Shown here piece by piece: positions 1 through 58,508 of a stretch of DNA of 58,508 bases (within the stretch, counting starts at the first letter, position 1; the number at the start of each line of letters is the position of its first letter). This DNA is from Escherichia phage KarinMuster_Bas82: the sequence record PQ850612.1. One strand, given 5' to 3'. Position numbers and translations under genes: made by a program. Under the pieces are notes generated by a model. The model was given only the letters and a program-made list of their open reading frames with translations. It was not told the DNA's origin and made no database searches.

Positions 1-1764
1 ATGAATAAGTTTACTGGAAATATTCATAATTACCCGCGCTGGCGGGATGCTTACGCAAACGACGAACGTATCTGGCGAAAAGGTCAGCCACGACCAGATT
101 ACAAACAGTGTTACATTGACCGCATTAACCTGTTAAATCGTATGCGCACGGATCGGACAATTGTCCCGGTACTGAAAAAGTATTACGAAACAAACCCGGT
201 AGCATTCATTCTCGACTGGGCGTTTACTTATGACCCGCGTAACGTCGGTACTGAATACCCACCCAACATGCCTTTCTGCCTTTTCGAACGTCAAATCGAC
301 ATGGTTCAGTTTGTTTACGAAGCGCTTGAAGACAAAGAAAAAGGGCTTTGGGAAAAATCGCGAGACTATGGTGCGACCTGGGTAGCCTGTGGTTTGTCCG
401 TGTGGGCGTGGCTGTATCGTCCTGGTTCGTCAGTCGGCTGGGGTTCACGTAAAGAACAGCTTGTCGATAAACTGGGCGACCCGGATAGTATTTTTGAAAA
501 GATTCGCCAGATTATCCGCGCATTACCACCGGAATTACGTCCTGTTGGTCTGCGTGAAAAAGATCATCTGGTTTATATGAAATGTATCAACCCAGAAAAC
601 GGTGCAACAATTACTGGTGAAGCTGGCGATAACATCGGTCGTGGTGGTCGTAAATCTGTCTATTTCTTGGATGAAGCGGCACACGTAGATCGTCCTGAAC
701 TGATTGAAGCGTCGTTGTCAGCTAACACCAACGTCCGTATTGATATCAGTTCGGTTAATGGCGTCGGTAACGTTTTTTATCGCAATCGTAAAGCTGGTCT
801 GGAATGGGAACCGGGCAAGAAATTACCTCGTGGTAAATTGCGTGTTATGGTTCTGGACTGGCGCGATCACCCAGCTAAAGATGACGAATGGTATAAGCGA
901 GAAAAACAATCGTTCGCTGAAAAAGGTTTACAGCATATTTTCGCACAGGAAGTTGACCGCGATTATGCCGCTGCTGTTCAGGGTGTACTGATTAAAGCTG
1001 AATGGGTTCGCGCTGCTTTTGATGCTTTCCGTGACACAGAATGGCGCAAAGCTAATGGACTACTTACACCAACAGGTCAACGTATCGCCGGACAGGATGC
1101 CGCAGACGGTGGTGAAGATGCCAGTGCGCTGGTAATTGCTCACGGTGTATTCCTGACACATCTGCAACTTGACCACAGGGGCGCTGAACTGGCTGCACCA
1201 GGAATGTTGACGATGGCTAATATGCTGGGTGTTGATGAATACTGGTACGAAGTTAACGGTGTTGGTACAGGCGTTAAAGTAGCGGCAAACGACCGAAAAG
1301 ATATTTTACGCTTCCGTGTGCGCCCGTGGTTACCGAATGGAAAAGTTGTGGATCCGGGTGGTGATATTATCGGTGGTACGAAACCTGGCGATAAAGACCG
1401 TAAATCAAACAAAGATTATTTCTCAAATTATAAAGCACAGGCATCGTGGGCGTTACGCCTGCGTTGTCAGCGAATTTATAAATGGTATGTGGAAGGTCAA
1501 CCACAGGATCCGGACGAAATCATTCTGATTGATCCATCACTGGAAAATGCACAACGGTTAGAAGCTGAGTTAAGTCAGCCAACGTATACCAGTAACGGTG
1601 CCGGGAAGATTGTGATCGACAAGAAACCAAACGGAAGTAAGTCACCAAACTTTTTCGATGCTGCGGTTATTGCACTATCACCAAAACGCACTGAATTTGT
1701 CGAAGAACCATTTACTGGTGGTGTGAATCCTGTTGGTACTCCTGAATACGGTGACATTTTTTAA
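1..1764 (+). CDS. terL: terminase large subunit
   Basis: 587-aa ORF; deviant Walker A-like KSRDYGATW, Walker B-like VYFLDEAAH, acidic C-terminal nuclease-like half; ORF starts at window base 1 so true 5' end may lie upstream. Confidence 0.75.
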   Translation: MNKFTGNIHNYPRWRDAYANDERIWRKGQPRPDYKQCYIDRINLLNRMRTDRTIVPVLKKYYETNPVAFILDWAFTYDPRNVGTEYPPNMPFCLFERQIDMVQFVYEALEDKEKGLWEKSRDYGATWVACGLSVWAWLYRPGSSVGWGSRKEQLVDKLGDPDSIFEKIRQIIRALPPELRPVGLREKDHLVYMKCINPENGATITGEAGDNIGRGGRKSVYFLDEAAHVDRPELIEASLSANTNVRIDISSVNGVGNVFYRNRKAGLEWEPGKKLPRGKLRVMVLDWRDHPAKDDEWYKREKQSFAEKGLQHIFAQEVDRDYAAAVQGVLIKAEWVRAAFDAFRDTEWRKANGLLTPTGQRIAGQDAADGGEDASALVIAHGVFLTHLQLDHRGAELAAPGMLTMANMLGVDEYWYEVNGVGTGVKVAANDRKDILRFRVRPWLPNGKVVDPGGDIIGGTKPGDKDRKSNKDYFSNYKAQASWALRLRCQRIYKWYVEGQPQDPDEIILIDPSLENAQRLEAELSQPTYTSNGAGKIVIDKKPNGSKSPNFFDAAVIALSPKRTEFVEEPFTGGVNPVGTPEYGDIF

Positions 1765-1926: not shown

Positions 1927-2625
1927 ATGTCTGACATGACTTTAGTTCCCACTGGCGGTTTCGGCGGTGAAGCTGGCGCGGCTGCACTTGGTGGTGGTAT
2001 CGGCGGTCTTATCGGTTCCTGGTTCGGTAACGGCTGGGGTGGTGCCGGTGGTTGGGGTGGTCGTGGTATTGGTGCTGCTGAAGGTGTTGTTGTTCAGAAC
2101 TCTCTGGATACTAACGCTATTCTTCAGGCTATTAATGCGGCGTCACTGGCTAACATTCAGGGTCAGAATGGTACTAACCTGACTGTTGAACGCTCAGCAG
2201 CTTCTACCTATAACGGTCTGACCCAACAAAACACACAAAACCTGCTGGCAAACGTTCAAGGTTTTGCAGGTCTGAACACTCAGATTCAGCAGGGTACGAA
2301 CACCGTGACCAATGCGATCTGTGCGTCTGAAACTGCGGCACTGACTCGTTCTTTCCAGGCACAGTTAGCGGCTGAGAAGTGTTGCTGCGAAACCAACCTG
2401 AACATTGAACGTCAGGCGGAAGCAACTCGTGCACTGATCCGTGATCAGTTCGCACAGTCTCAGGCTGTTCTGATTTGTGACCTGAAATCTCAGATTCAAA
2501 CCCGTGACTTCCAGTTGTCTCAATTGTCACAAACGTCTCAGTTGGCGTGCAAAATTAACCAGGTCGATCAGCTTATTAACTTCAAGCTGCCTACTCCGCA
2601 AACTCCACCGACTGGCTGCTGCTAA
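1927..2625 (+). CDS. glycine-rich / Q,N-rich protein ending in Cys-Cys
   Basis: 232-aa ORF with SD AGGAG upstream; N-terminal GGxGG tract, C-terminal CCCE and terminal GCC. Confidence 0.6.
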   Translation: MSDMTLVPTGGFGGEAGAAALGGGIGGLIGSWFGNGWGGAGGWGGRGIGAAEGVVVQNSLDTNAILQAINAASLANIQGQNGTNLTVERSAASTYNGLTQQNTQNLLANVQGFAGLNTQIQQGTNTVTNAICASETAALTRSFQAQLAAEKCCCETNLNIERQAEATRALIRDQFAQSQAVLICDLKSQIQTRDFQLSQLSQTSQLACKINQVDQLINFKLPTPQTPPTGCC

Positions 2626-2675
2626 TTGGTCAACTAAGCGCCTCTGTACGGGGCGCTTTAACAGGAGATAAGAGT

Positions 2676-3035
2676 ATGCATTACAAACCGTATTACGTTA
2701 TCAAAAAAGACGATGATGACGATGAAGAGGAAGATGTAGAAATTCATCACCATCATCATTATCACCACGGGCATCACCCGGACACGATGGGAGTATTTCA
2801 TCATGATAGCTATGCTGGCGAACATGATTCAGTTATGGCCCATGTTAAAGCACGTATGGATAACCCTCCTTCGACTTGGGCGTCGTACCACGATAAGCCC
2901 GGCGGGATGATGTCCATTGTTGAAATGGAATATCGCGAACTGATGGAAGAAAAAACCGAAGGTTCGACGTCTGGTATTAAAAAAGAGCTAACGGATCTGG
3001 CTGCAGCCTGTATCCAAGCACTTAAAAAGATGTAA
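2676..3035 (+). CDS. histidine-rich acidic protein
   Basis: 119-aa ORF, SD AGGAG; DDDDDEEED tract followed by HHHHHYHHGHH. Confidence 0.6.
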   Translation: MHYKPYYVIKKDDDDDEEEDVEIHHHHHYHHGHHPDTMGVFHHDSYAGEHDSVMAHVKARMDNPPSTWASYHDKPGGMMSIVEMEYRELMEEKTEGSTSGIKKELTDLAAACIQALKKM

Positions 3036-3051
3036 CTAACAGGAAACCGAC

Positions 3052-3555
3052 ATGCAGAATATTAACGCAGGTATGGGTGTCACCCAGTTTAACGGTATGA
3101 AACCGCGAAGCACTATTAACATTGGTGGTGTGGAGTGGTCATTACGTCGGGATGCCACTGACTCAACAACAATGTTTCCTCATCCGAAGGTAAGCTGGCT
3201 TAACGCTGGTTGTGAGCCGATGGGTGATGGTCGTTTTCATTACTGTTGGATTTTGGGTGTGATTCCCCCGACACCGGGGACAATCGAACGACCTGTTAAT
3301 GTGATGTATGTTGGTTTCCATCAATTTAAAATTAATATCGCACCTAATTCAATTAGTCAGGCTGATTTAGACAGGATGCATGTTTATGTCAGCGATACTT
3401 CTCACTTTGCTGGTGAATTTGTCAGTAAGTTTTTAGGTACAGAACCTGAACCTGTGGAAACTCGTGAAAATATCAGCCCGTGGCCCCCGATGAATGATCC
3501 TCGTGAGCAACCAAAAGTAGCAAAAAATAAGGTAAACGAAGATGACGAAGAATGA
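3052..3555 (+). CDS. hypothetical protein
   Basis: 167-aa ORF with SD AGGAAA, same operon. Confidence 0.5.
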   Translation: MQNINAGMGVTQFNGMKPRSTINIGGVEWSLRRDATDSTTMFPHPKVSWLNAGCEPMGDGRFHYCWILGVIPPTPGTIERPVNVMYVGFHQFKINIAPNSISQADLDRMHVYVSDTSHFAGEFVSKFLGTEPEPVETRENISPWPPMNDPREQPKVAKNKVNEDDEE

Positions 3556-21724: not shown

Positions 21725-22147
21725 ATGTCAAAGTTTGACCATCTGAAAAAAGCACTTTCTCCACTGGTGCTGAAGTCTTCTGCTGAACTGATTTTAAATA
21801 AAAATTTCAGTATCACCGTGTTGAACCTGAACACCGCTAACCAGGTATATAACGTAACAGTCGCGGACTATGTAAAACAGAACGGTGTGTTGTCTGAAAA
21901 TTTCTTTGAAAAACTGTGGAATCAGGAATATACACCAGAAGGTGTTAAGTTCGTGGCTAACGTTCTTATGCTGGACTGGAAACTGATTGGTGAAGATGAC
22001 AAACCGGAACCATTCAGTGTTGAAGAAGCTATTGAACTGTTAAGTGATGAACGTTTTGGTCAGGTGATCTACAGTCGTGTTATTCAGTTTGCAATTAATT
22101 CCGCATTTTTCCAGGACGAATGGGAAAAACAGATTGAAAAAAACTGA
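21725..22147 (+). CDS. tail assembly chaperone (short form)
   Basis: 140 aa upstream of tape measure; slippery site at 3' end. Confidence 0.65.
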   Translation: MSKFDHLKKALSPLVLKSSAELILNKNFSITVLNLNTANQVYNVTVADYVKQNGVLSENFFEKLWNQEYTPEGVKFVANVLMLDWKLIGEDDKPEPFSVEEAIELLSDERFGQVIYSRVIQFAINSAFFQDEWEKQIEKN

Positions 22148-22443
22148 TTGACTTCCTCTTGTGGAACGAGCGGACAGACGGGGATGACCTGGACTGGGTT
22201 GCACAAGGGGCGGCTGCACGTGGTATATCTGTTCCGGTTGTTGTACGGAAACGTCCTGAATTGCGACCTGATGCTATCTTTTACTGGAATGCTTTTTTGG
22301 ATTTGATAGGTGCTGATTGGGTTGCTTGTGAGCGTTATGCACGGGTGTATAACGTTGATGTACAATTCCTATGGAAATTATTGGTAGCATTGCGGTCTGC
22401 ACGTGTTGTCGAGATGAAGAAAAATAAACATAAGCCCGGTTAG
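21725..22443 (+). CDS. tail assembly chaperone frameshift-extended form
   Basis: fusion ...EWEKQIEKN-LIDFLLWNERTDGDD... by -1 shift. Confidence 0.55.
22138..22144 (+). other. -1 programmed frameshift site A_AAA_AAC
   Basis: heptamer ends 1 nt before stop; -1 frame open for 94 further codons to 22443 and lacks its own ATG/SD. Confidence 0.6.
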
Positions 22444-22457
22444 TTCCGGGCTTTTTC
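22433..22457. terminator. hairpin terminator between convergent genes
   Basis: AGCCCGG-ttagtt-CCGGGCT then TTTTT. Confidence 0.55.
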
Positions 22458-23354
22458 ATTTATGTAGTCGAGGATTGCAGGAGAGTATTTAAACCACTCT
22501 GTAGCACCGTCAAAGCCTTTGAGACGCGCATTAAGTTCACGGAAGACCTTGTGTACCTCTTGTTCCAGTTTGTAAGCATCAGCGCCGTGTGGAAACGGGT
22601 ATGACACGAGTTTAACCACTGGGTGTGTTGTTTCGCGTTGTAGTTGTCGTAGTCGCCGTTTTAAGTCGTTTGTGATACCGACTTTAAGCAGAGTAGGGCA
22701 CTTTTTATCGTCAGCTAACACGTAGAGTGTACCGGGTTCTGACGGGTTAAAACCTGTTTGTGAACACTGAGGACAACCATGTTTTTTATGCAAATGCATG
22801 GCTGGACGTTGTTCAAACACTCCATGCTCTGGACAGATGATTTTTATTCGAGTGAAATTGTTAATATACGCCACCAACGAATAGTCGTAACGGTCCCCAT
22901 GAACTTCGCGAGCACGAGTAATGAAATCTTCGGCGCCTAAGCGTTTTTGTTCAGACGACTGTTTACGAGCACATTGTGGGCAACCTTTCCCGTGAACATG
23001 ATTGCCCGGTGTCTGTTCAAACACACCATGTATCGGACAGATAATCTTCACAGGTGTGCACCAATTCACATACTCCACCAGCGAATAGTCATACTTGTCC
23101 CCATGAACTTCACGAGCACGAGTGATAAACTCTCCTGTGGTTAAACGTTTTTGTTCAACAGTACATTGGGTACAACCTGCTTTCATTGAAGTGTGATTGT
23201 TCGGAGTCTGTTCAAATACCCCGTGTTCGGGGCAGATAATTTTTACTTTGGTGTTAGCACCTTCATACTCCACCAGCGAATAGTCATACTTGTCACCATG
23301 AACTTCACGGGCACGCGTGATAAACTCTTCTGTGGTTAAACGTTTCCTACTCAT
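22440..23354 (-). CDS. T5orf172/GIY-YIG-like domain protein with three N-terminal repeats
   Basis: 304 aa; three ~60-aa repeats (EFITRAREVHGDKYDYSLVEY...CPxHGVFEQ...C.QC); C-terminal GTLYVLADDKK...LLKVGITNDLKRRLRQL. Confidence 0.6.
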   Translation of the reverse strand: MSRKRLTTEEFITRAREVHGDKYDYSLVEYEGANTKVKIICPEHGVFEQTPNNHTSMKAGCTQCTVEQKRLTTGEFITRAREVHGDKYDYSLVEYVNWCTPVKIICPIHGVFEQTPGNHVHGKGCPQCARKQSSEQKRLGAEDFITRAREVHGDRYDYSLVAYINNFTRIKIICPEHGVFEQRPAMHLHKKHGCPQCSQTGFNPSEPGTLYVLADDKKCPTLLKVGITNDLKRRLRQLQRETTHPVVKLVSYPFPHGADAYKLEQEVHKVFRELNARLKGFDGATEWFKYSPAILDYINEKARN

Positions 23355-57334: not shown

Positions 57335-57342
57335 ACAACGAT

Positions 57343-58193
57343 CTACTTACACGTTTCACACTTGGCCCCTTCAGCCTTGTCTATTCCACACTGCAAATAT
57401 TCATTTTCTTTTTGTTCTAATGTTTTTCCACGACACAAACCAACAGTGGTACTTTCTGGTGTCATTTTATATTTCTGATAGTTTGCTTCCAGTTGTCGAA
57501 CACGGTGATAGTGTGCCGGATACATTGTGCGTAACATGTGGATTTCACCACCTGTCAAATGAGGGCAACATATACAACTTGATTTACCAGGATAATACAA
57601 ACCAACTTCTTCAACTGCGTCAGACTCTTTTTCACCAATATCCCAGTCAAATAATGGGAATACCTGACACCATTTATCTTCTGGTTGCCACTTGGCAGCC
57701 CGGTTTGGTTCATCAGCGTTAATACCAACAATACGTAAAATCGTACCCGTGTGACTGGACAATGGACGACCTTTACCGTTGACACCCCATGCTTTCCAGG
57801 CTTTGGGGTGGTTGTTGAAATATTTATCAGCAGTTTCTTTTTTAAAACGTAAGCTACATGATTTAGAACCGAAAGCAGCAGCCGGGAGATCGTTAGCTGC
57901 TTCTGCCGTACCAATTACGCTTAATGGAAAACCGTATTTATCTTTCTTATTGAGTATTACAACTTTCGACCAGTTGCGGTCAGCGCACCATTTTTTAAAT
58001 GTTCTATGAACTTATAGGTGTGAGGAAATTCTGAACCCGTATCACAGAAAACGATTTCGTCAGGTTCAAATCCGCGTTTATACAGTTCTGCAATTAACAT
58101 TGCTGTGTCATCACCCATACCGCCCATAACTACACGAAAACTGGTGCTTATCCACGCGAGTTCGATAGGTGGGCGATTGTTGAAAAGTATCAT
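57343..58193 (-). CDS. PAPS reductase-like protein split by a -1 frame change
   Basis: N-terminal frame 58193-57957: VVMGGMGDDTAM and FCDTGSEFPHTYKF; body in -1 frame, open from about 58008 with no start codon until TTG at 57762; frames overlap at A6 run 57996-57991. Confidence 0.55.
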
Positions 58194-58403
58194 TAGAAGT
58201 AGCTCCCAGTAGACTTTACATCATCAACATTCTGTAAACCGTTAGTGACTGTTGCAACTATACGATGAAGTTTATGGTTCATTTACCGACTGATTTTAGA
58301 TCCAACATATATACCTGCGAACATGGTTAAAGCACCCATGATAAAGCCTATTACAAACGTATATTCTTCCACGATTCACTACTCCTGTTCATTTGATAAC
58401 CAG

Positions 58404-58447
58404 ATTCTAGTTGTTCATCTGTAATCTGTCAAGAATTATTTTAAACC
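58404..58447 (-). promoter_or_regulatory. conserved phage promoter (leftward)
   Basis: TTTAAAATAATTCTTGACAGATTAC; -10 TAGAAT. Confidence 0.6.
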
Positions 58448-58508
58448 TCTGTTACCACACGTCACCCGTGGTAAACTGTACAGAACAGTTACAAACGGGT
58501 CGATAACC

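What the first reader, a model, noticed from the sequence alone, without database searches (positions are those of the whole stretch)
57343..58193. PAPS-reductase-like gene split across two frames at an A_AAA_AAT slippery heptamer
The N-terminal 78 codons (PP-loop-like VVMGGMGDDTAM and FCDTGSEFPHTYKF) stop at 57957, while the rest of the protein is encoded in the -1 frame, which is open from about 58008 but has no ATG/GTG/TTG until 57762. The frames overlap at ...TTA AAA AAT GG... (about 57998-57988), the same X_XXA_AAY heptamer type used at the tail chaperone site. This is either a homopolymer sequencing error, a genuine pseudogene, or a second programmed -1 frameshift giving a short and a full-length product.
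Basis: seen in the sequence. Interest (0 to 1): 0.6.

Follow-up and report, generated by a model that had tools for sequence, protein, structure and literature searches.

The report
One-base deletion splits phage accessory gene
A phage gene for a PAPS-reductase-like enzyme is broken into two reading frames because a run of seven A's has lost one A; this is a real, inherited mutation in a dispensable gene, not a sequencing error and not a conserved programmed frameshift.

Summary
On the minus strand a 78-codon ORF (58193..57957) and the -1 frame (open 58011..57343) together encode one 283-aa PAPS-reductase-like protein. The frames meet at CAT TTA AAA AAT GG (A6 run at 57996..57991).

Three results decide the interpretation.
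1. The exact 78-aa product, including its out-of-frame tail, is called on at least 16 public contigs. These represent five distinct phage genotypes besides the window, so this is not a one-off sequencing error.
2. A 99%-identical intact allele reads CAT TTA AAA AAA TGG (A7). A 283-aa protein identical to the fused reading also exists, so the window allele is a one-base contraction, A7 to A6.
3. More distant orthologs (Salmonella, Morganella and Vibrio phages, 11 IMG/VR loci) are single ORFs with no slippery heptamer. No downstream RNA structure is present (z = 0.16).

Relatives show other lesions in the same gene: a T7-run frameshift in Klebsiella phage Carvaje and an ~0.9 kb deletion in phage PJ16.

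Best reading: a young loss-of-function, or at most leaky, allele on a mobile ~1.1 kb accessory cassette. A_AAA_AAT is intrinsically slippery, so trace full-length protein is possible. Nothing indicates the frameshift is selected. Interest is low.

The parts
57957..58193 (-). ORF-A: 78 codons. Residues 1-67 are the true N-terminus of the PAPS-reductase-like protein (beta1-alpha1-beta2 and half of alpha2 of the nucleotide-binding core). The last 11 residues (NGALTATGRKL) are out-of-frame tail.
   Evidence: AF2 secondary structure; SD-like GGGAG at 58207-58203; the ATG overlaps the TAA of the upstream ORF (TAATG), read directly
57343..58011 (-). -1 frame open stretch encoding residues 67-283 of the protein. 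There is no start codon before the TTG at 57762, so residues 67-144 can only be reached by a frame change.
   Evidence: alignment to intact orthologs
57990..57999 (-). Frame junction T TTA AAA AAT: A6 run at 57996..57991, heptamer A_AAA_AAT at 57996..57990, overlapping T_TTA_AAA at 57999..57993. This is the site of the A7 to A6 contraction.
   Evidence: the intact L027 has TTTAAAAAAATGG; the window and 10 contigs have TTTAAAAAATGG
57343..57762 (-). The 139-aa ORF that gene callers report (TTG start). It is the C-terminal part of the same protein, carrying the invariant Cys residues C207, C210, C279 and C282. It is not an independent gene.
58193..58282 (-). Upstream 29-aa ORF whose TAA stop overlaps the ATG of ORF-A (TAATG). 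It is part of the cassette.
   Evidence: no Pfam match
58283..58372 (-). Upstream 29-aa hydrophobic ORF (GTG start), part of the cassette.
   Evidence: no Pfam match
58404..58432 (-). Promoter-like site TTGACA-17-TAGAAT (11 of 12 matches) at the head of the cassette. This is a consensus match only.
57337..58458 (-). About 1.1 kb accessory cassette. It is nearly invariant (0-2 SNPs in the gene) across phage genomes whose flanks differ by about 4%. Phage PJ16 has lost 58453..57558 of it.

Best explanation
The gene is a frameshift allele of a normally uninterrupted 283-codon gene for a PAPS-reductase-like (PP-loop, Fe-S type) enzyme. A run of seven A's (TTA AAA AAA, Leu-Lys-Lys) lost one A, most likely by polymerase slippage during replication. 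Ribosomes starting at 58193 therefore leave the true frame after Lys67 and stop 11 codons later, making a 78-aa fragment that holds less than a third of the Rossmann-like core. Residues 67-144 have no start codon of their own, so the enzyme is not made, apart from whatever trace arises from spontaneous -1 slippage on A_AAA_AAT. The gene sits on a young, mobile ~1.1 kb accessory cassette in the variable region between the two terminase genes. Loss of the gene is evidently tolerated. Shown: the A7/A6 difference, the independent occurrences of A6, the intact orthologs and the absence of a stimulator. Inferred: the direction of the change (A7 to A6), loss of function, and neutrality.
For: 1. Intact allele L027 (protein P0001, 99% identical) reads CAT TTA AAA AAA TGG. 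The window and contigs L018-L026 read CAT TTA AAA AAT GG, and the only indel in the gene is that one A.
2. P0126, a 283-aa protein on 4 contigs up to 59 kb, is identical to the fused reading. Eight further intact 283-aa variants lie in the same 90% cluster and differ among themselves, so A6 is nested within the diversity of intact alleles.
3. The exact 78-aa product is on at least 16 contigs. By their flank SNP patterns these are five genotypes besides the window.
4. Orthologs at 57-80% identity are single ORFs reading CTG AAG AAG, CTT AAG CGC or GTG AAA GCG at the site, with no heptamer.
5. dN/dS between the window and Carvaje is 0.04 in both halves of the gene, so it was a working protein gene until recently.
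6. Independent lesions exist in relatives: Carvaje has a T7-run frameshift at another position and of opposite sign, and PJ16 has a deletion leaving only 64 codons.
7. The downstream 92 nt fold no better than shuffles (z = 0.16), and I saw no SD-like element upstream.
8. The site lies in the middle of helix 57-72 of a single compact domain (pLDDT 91), so the fragment cannot be a domain.
9. PMC4066793 reports that A7 and T7 runs are under-represented in E. coli genes, possibly because of indels or transcriptional slippage. Heptamers without a stimulator give at most about 10 times a 0.055% background, and heterogeneous A-site codons such as AAU shift poorly.
Against: No further disabling mutation has accumulated in any A6 copy, and of the 4 SNPs in the gene 3 are synonymous. 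This has no statistical weight: P = 0.10-0.25 once the transition bias and a probably recombinant SNP are allowed for. The A6 allele has spread into backgrounds about 4% apart and in two upstream contexts (L019 versus the rest), which is a little unexpected for a dead gene. It is, however, the normal pattern for any young insertion whose flanks recombine with cassette-free relatives. The heptamer uses the same P- and A-site tRNAs (Lys, Asn) as the phage's own tail-chaperone site A_AAA_AAC, so some full-length protein is plausible. An alternative order cannot be strictly excluded: CTT AAA AAA, then loss of C giving the A6 allele, then gain of A giving A7.
Confidence: 0.8

Rival explanations
1. 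Recently evolved programmed, or at least exploited, -1 ribosomal frameshift. Ribosomes slip on T_TTA_AAA_AAT to make a small amount of full-length enzyme alongside the abundant 78-aa product, which throttles a costly or toxic activity.
For: A canonical X_XXY_YYZ heptamer sits exactly at the frame junction, with a second overlapping one. Slipping gives a protein colinear with intact orthologs (HLK[K/N]WC). The same phage uses A_AAA_AAC at its tail-chaperone site. The A6 allele persists undecayed in six genotypes.
Against: The arrangement is not conserved. The nearest allele is intact with A7 and all more distant orthologs lack any slippery site. No stimulatory structure is present. Unlike the tail-chaperone site, no stop codon follows the heptamer directly. 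Expected efficiency without a stimulator in E. coli is at most about 0.5% (PMC4066793). The heptamer is an automatic by-product of an A7 to A6 contraction. Other relatives inactivate the gene in unrelated ways.
Confidence: 0.08
2. Reversible ON/OFF switching (contingency-locus style). The A-run flips between A7 and A6 at high rate, so the phage population always holds both expressing and non-expressing variants.
For: Both tract lengths circulate in otherwise near-identical alleles. A6 occurs with two different upstream contexts, and L019 shares a synonymous SNP with the intact L027. This is compatible with recurrence, or with recombination. Carvaje's lesion is also a homopolymer length change.
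Against: A7 is short for a contingency tract. All 10 copies next to the terminase large subunit are A6 and the one copy seen at the other site is A7, so tract length tracks descent or context rather than flipping freely. The 3' SNP pattern of all A6 copies is the same, which fits a single origin.
Confidence: 0.08
3. Homopolymer sequencing or assembly error: the real genome has A7 and an intact gene.
For: Single-base homopolymer miscounts are the most common artefact, and the gene is otherwise perfectly intact with dN/dS of 0.04.
Against: An identical A6 appears in at least 16 contigs from several unrelated projects and assemblers. Other contigs from the same kinds of data assemble A7. Tract length correlates with genomic context.
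Confidence: 0.03

Closest known systems
Homopolymer-indel frameshift alleles (split genes or pseudogenes) in phage accessory ('moron') genes
   Same: A single-base length change in an A7 run. An intact near-identical allele co-circulates. The gene lies in a variable region, and relatives carry other lesions (a frameshift at a T7 run, a deletion).
   Different: The residual sequence happens to be a canonical slippery heptamer, so the allele may be slightly leaky. No secondary decay has occurred yet.
Programmed -1 frameshifting of tail assembly chaperones (lambda G/GT type), present in this same genome at 22138..22144
   Same: An A_AAA_AAY heptamer read by tRNA-Lys and tRNA-Asn, with a -1 shift giving a longer product.
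   Different: The G/GT arrangement is conserved across tailed phages, and here the heptamer is followed directly by a stop codon. The PAPS-reductase-like site is absent from all orthologs, its 0-frame stop lies 11 codons further on, and the short product is not a folding unit.
PAPS reductase / PP-loop ATP pyrophosphatase superfamily (CysH, PF01507; DndC and SspD of DNA phosphorothioation systems; TtuA; PHROG 424)
   Same: PHROG 424 at E = 1e-30. Pfam PF01507 just above its cut-off. PADLOC SspD at E = 7e-9. Top Foldseek matches are CysH structures 6vpu and 1sur, and TtuA. Four invariant cysteines (C-x2-C and C-x2-C) suggest an Fe-S cluster like those of APS reductase, DndC and TtuA.
   Different: Only 15-17% identity and TM-score 0.4-0.5 to solved structures. 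The nucleotide-loop motif is GGMGDD rather than SGGKDS. I saw no ECGLH-type C-terminal motif. It is a stand-alone gene without Dnd or Ssp partners, and its substrate is unknown.

Membership tests
Programmed -1 ribosomal frameshift site | X_XXY_YYZ slippery heptamer in the 0 frame at the frame junction | tested here: met
   A_AAA_AAT at 57996..57990, and T_TTA_AAA at 57999..57993
Programmed -1 ribosomal frameshift site | Stimulatory element: a downstream hairpin or pseudoknot 5-9 nt after the heptamer, or an upstream SD-like sequence | tested here: not met
   The MFE of the 92 nt downstream is -16.4 kcal/mol against a shuffle mean of -16.9 (z = 0.16). No GGAGG-like sequence lies in the 20 nt upstream (read).
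Programmed -1 ribosomal frameshift site | Two-frame arrangement and heptamer conserved among orthologs | tested here: not met
   The 99%-identical L027 is in one frame with A7. SP-031, SenTO17, Henu15, Vibrio phage 1.023.O and 11 IMG/VR loci are single ORFs without a heptamer.
Programmed -1 ribosomal frameshift site | Both products are made in a fixed ratio | not testable with these tools
   Needs a reporter assay, western blot or mass spectrometry.
Frameshift pseudogene caused by a homopolymer indel | A near-identical intact allele differs by one base in a mononucleotide run | tested here: met
   A7 in L027 against A6 in the window. P0126 equals the fused protein.
Frameshift pseudogene caused by a homopolymer indel | The variant is heritable rather than a read error | tested here: met
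   At least 16 contigs, representing five flank genotypes besides the window.
Frameshift pseudogene caused by a homopolymer indel | Relaxed constraint or secondary decay after the lesion | tested here: inconclusive
   Only 4 SNPs in the gene among the A6 copies, 3 synonymous and 1 not. There is no power to test this.
PAPS reductase family (Pfam PF01507) / PP-loop ATPase fold | Profile match at or above the curated threshold | tested here: met
   PF01507 scores 22.6 bits against a cut-off of 22.5, over residues 34-89 only, so this is marginal. PHROG 424 matches at E = 1.2e-30.
PAPS reductase family (Pfam PF01507) / PP-loop ATPase fold | Rossmann-like alpha/beta fold matching solved members | tested here: met
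   AF2 model with pLDDT 91. Top Foldseek matches are CysH 6vpu (E = 8e-6) and 1sur, TtuA 5gha, and yeast PAPS reductase 2oq2, with TM-scores of 0.4-0.5.
PAPS reductase family (Pfam PF01507) / PP-loop ATPase fold | Canonical SGGxDS PP-loop and, for CysH proper, the C-terminal ECGLH catalytic cysteine | tested here: inconclusive
   The loop reads MGGMGDDT, with invariant G25, G27, D28 and D29. No ECGLH motif is present. Instead there is a conserved GLCRG and four invariant Cys residues. It is therefore a superfamily member, not shown to be a CysH.
SspD / DndC (DNA phosphorothioation ATP pyrophosphatases) | Profile match, and partner genes (SspABC or DndABDE) nearby | tested here: not met
   A weak SspD match (33.8 bits, E = 7e-9). 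Neighbours in the window and in six other phages are unrelated small ORFs, a terminase, or a methylase.

The most novel reading that the evidence does not exclude
The A6 allele is not dead. It is a newly arisen 'leaky frameshift' that the phage exploits, using the same Lys/Asn slippery heptamer type as its tail-chaperone site. This would hold a costly PAPS-reductase/SspD-like enzyme at about 1% expression, and would explain why this version of the cassette has spread undecayed into several diverged phage genomes.
Probability: 0.08. Interest if true: 0.5.

Novelty: already known. Interest (0 to 1): 0.15.

Why it matters
Mainly for annotation. The 78-aa and 139-aa 'hypothetical proteins' called on this and many metagenomic contigs are two pieces of one disrupted gene. 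They should be annotated as a frameshifted PAPS-reductase-like pseudogene, not as a recoding site. The case also shows that a slippery heptamer at a frame break is what a homopolymer contraction automatically leaves behind, so it is not by itself evidence of programmed frameshifting. A minor further point is that the gene family is widespread in enterobacterial and Vibrio phages, strongly constrained (dN/dS 0.04) and of unknown function. Natural knock-out alleles alongside near-isogenic intact alleles would make a convenient starting point for finding out what it does.

Tried and rejected
The number of independent A6 origins therefore could not be resolved.
- Exact-pattern scans for the site, allowing A6 or A7 and including a degenerate pattern covering Carvaje-type alleles, found nothing in JGI metagenome contigs or GTDB genomes.
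- Megablast of the cassette found nothing in complete E. coli genomes or in plasmids.
- A sequence search of the PDB gave only noise. The fold search was needed to place the protein.
- A selection test on SNPs within the A6 alleles had too few events.
- The paper on 9NA-like phage genomics (PMC6819911) is not held.
- A split-enzyme reading, with the 78-aa and 139-aa pieces working together, was rejected. Residues 67-144 include many invariant positions (W69, W75, S76, L103, P104, F108, G109, C113, K118) and have no start codon.
- Transcriptional slippage was rejected as a main route. By general knowledge of bacterial RNA polymerase slippage, an A6 run is too short. This was not tested here.

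Full report
**What is there**

On the minus strand an ATG at 58193 opens a 78-codon ORF ending at TAA 57959-57957. The ATG is preceded by GGGAG at 58207-58203 and overlaps the TAA of a 29-codon upstream ORF. The -1 frame is open from 58011 to the stop at 57345-57343, and its first possible start codon is the TTG at 57762. The two frames meet at CAT TTA AAA AAT GG. The A6 run is at 57996..57991, the heptamer A_AAA_AAT at 57996..57990, and an overlapping T_TTA_AAA at 57999..57993. Joining the frames there gives a 283-aa protein.

**What the protein is**

- The fused protein matches PHROG 424, 'phosphoadenosine phosphosulfate reductase', at E = 1.2e-30.
- It matches Pfam PF01507 marginally, at 22.6 bits against a cut-off of 22.5.
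- In PADLOC its best match is SspD, at E = 7e-9.
- An AlphaFold model built from 38 homologs has mean pLDDT 91 and is one compact alpha/beta domain.
- The best solved-structure matches are CysH PAPS reductases (6vpu, 1sur, 2oq2, 2o8v) and the Fe-S sulfurtransferase TtuA. TM-scores are 0.4-0.5 and identity is 15-17%.
- Four cysteines (C207, C210, C279, C282) are invariant across the family. I infer that they bind an Fe-S cluster.

'PAPS-reductase-like' is therefore right at superfamily level. It is not shown to be a CysH, and the gene has no Dnd or Ssp partners nearby. The frame break falls in the middle of helix 57-72, so the 78-aa product is not a folding unit. Residues 67-144 carry many invariant positions and cannot be translated without a frame change.

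**What the genome is**

The window is a complete, circularly permuted genome of a 9NA-like siphophage (Nonanavirus/Sashavirus), opened at the start of the terminase large-subunit gene (terL).
- Alignments of related contigs run from window position 1797 down through 1 and continue at 58508.
- The closest records are E. coli phages AVIO78A and PDP46 at about 96% identity.
- Its size fits the ~58.5 kb BASEL Nonanavirus phage KarinMuster (PMC11990801). That identification is an inference only.

**Is the frameshift real?**

Yes. The exact 78-aa product, including its out-of-frame tail, is called on at least 16 public contigs from ENA and Logan assemblies. All of them read TTTAAAAAATGG. By the SNP patterns of their flanks they represent five different phage genotypes besides the window. 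Other contigs of the same kind of data assemble an intact gene. A one-off read or assembly error is therefore excluded for the allele, although the reads of this particular isolate could not be inspected.

**What happened at the site**

The representative of the 90% protein cluster, P0001, is an intact 283-aa protein 99% identical to the fused reading. Its DNA (L027) reads CAT TTA AAA AAA TGG, and that one extra A is the only indel relative to the window. Another member, P0126, is on 4 contigs of up to 59 kb and is identical to the fused protein. Eight more intact 283-aa variants lie in the cluster and differ among themselves. The nearly monomorphic A6 allele is thus nested within a more diverse set of intact alleles, so A7 to A6 is the likely direction.

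A7 runs are known indel and slippage hot spots and are under-represented in E. coli genes (PMC4066793). A contraction of TTA AAA AAA necessarily leaves A_AAA_AAT. The presence of a slippery heptamer at the break therefore needs no further explanation.

**Is it programmed?**

The evidence says no.
- Orthologs at 57-80% identity are all single ORFs. These are Salmonella Cornellvirus SP-031 and SenTO17, Morganella phage Henu15, Vibrio phage 1.023.O, 11 IMG/VR loci and more than 100 database proteins.
- At the site the four fetched orthologs read CTG AAG AAG, CTT AAG CGC or GTG AAA GCG, none of which is a slippery heptamer. The other orthologs match as single uninterrupted ORFs or full-length proteins.
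- The 92 nt downstream fold no better than shuffled sequence (z = 0.16), and I saw no SD-like element upstream.
- In E. coli, heptamers without a stimulator reach at most about ten times a 0.055% background, and heterogeneous A-site codons such as AAU shift poorly (PMC4066793).

What remains is that the site is intrinsically slippery. It uses the same tRNAs (Lys, Asn) as this phage's own tail-chaperone site, A_AAA_AAC at 22138..22144. That site, unlike this one, is followed directly by a stop codon. Trace full-length protein is therefore plausible.

**Evolutionary context**

- dN/dS between the window and Klebsiella phage Carvaje (both frames repaired) is 0.04 in both halves of the gene, so it was a constrained protein gene until recently.
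- Carvaje's copy is itself split, at a T7 run about 50 nt upstream and with the opposite sign. At the window's site Carvaje reads through in one frame: TAT CTT AAA AAA TGG.
- E. coli phage PJ16 has lost window 58453..57558 and keeps only the last 64 codons.

The gene belongs to a ~1.1 kb cassette at 58458..57337. The cassette holds a promoter-like TTGACA-17-TAGAAT, two 29-codon ORFs and the gene. It is almost invariant among genomes, with 0-2 SNPs in the 851-nt gene. The flanks of those same genomes differ from the window by about 4%: 65-75 mismatches in the 1764 nt of terL and 15-18 in 431 nt downstream.

In L027 and Carvaje the gene sits at a different place, next to the small terminase gene. 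This is the signature of a young, mobile accessory module whose flanks recombine with cassette-free relatives. It needs no selection on the frameshifted state.

Among the A6 copies there are only four SNPs in the gene, three synonymous and one Met to Val. That is too few to test constraint: P is about 0.1-0.25 after allowing for transition bias.

**Verdict**

This is a genuine one-base homopolymer contraction that inactivates a dispensable accessory gene, or at most leaves it leaky. The kind of event is well known and the finding is of low interest. Its practical value is for annotation, and as a natural knock-out of an uncharacterised but widespread phage enzyme family.

My confidence is about 0.8 for the mutation reading, about 0.08 each for exploited frameshifting and for reversible switching, and about 0.03 for a sequencing error.

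Noticed in passing
L001 (Klebsiella phage Carvaje OL604152) 2502-3354, T7 run at about 2643-2651: The Carvaje ortholog is also split into two annotated CDSs (50 aa and 239 aa). The break is at a different homopolymer (GTTTTTTTG, where the window has GTTTTCTG) and has the opposite sign. An intact Carvaje-like protein (P0128) exists in public data. Whether Carvaje's break is a real mutation or a sequencing error is unknown.
   Followed up: partly
window 57337-58458; L027 3904-4863; L002 (PJ16): The gene belongs to a ~1.1 kb module with its own promoter-like site. The module is found at two alternative sites: next to terL in the window and L018-L026, and next to the small terminase gene in L027 and Carvaje. 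PJ16 has partly deleted it. It is near-identical across genomes whose flanks differ by about 4%.
   Followed up: partly
window 22138-22144: The tail assembly chaperone -1 frameshift site is A_AAA_AAC, followed directly by TGA. The -1 frame continues as KKLIDFLLWNERTDGDD... to 22443.
   Followed up: partly
window 22440-23354 (minus strand): A 304-aa ORF with repeated DUF723 motifs and a T5orf172 / MUG113 domain (homing-endonuclease type) lies on the opposite strand, between the tail chaperone genes and the tape measure gene. DUF723 proteins sit at other positions in related contigs L018 and L019.
   Followed up: partly
window 1-1764 and 58194-58508: The window is a whole circularly permuted genome opened at the terL start codon. 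Related contigs align straight across the junction from 58508 to 1.
   Followed up: yes
L004 (Morganella phage Henu15) 1501-3273: In Henu15 the intact ortholog lies immediately upstream of a C-5 cytosine DNA methylase gene. Together with the weak SspD similarity, this hints at a role in DNA modification. Not examined further.
   Followed up: no
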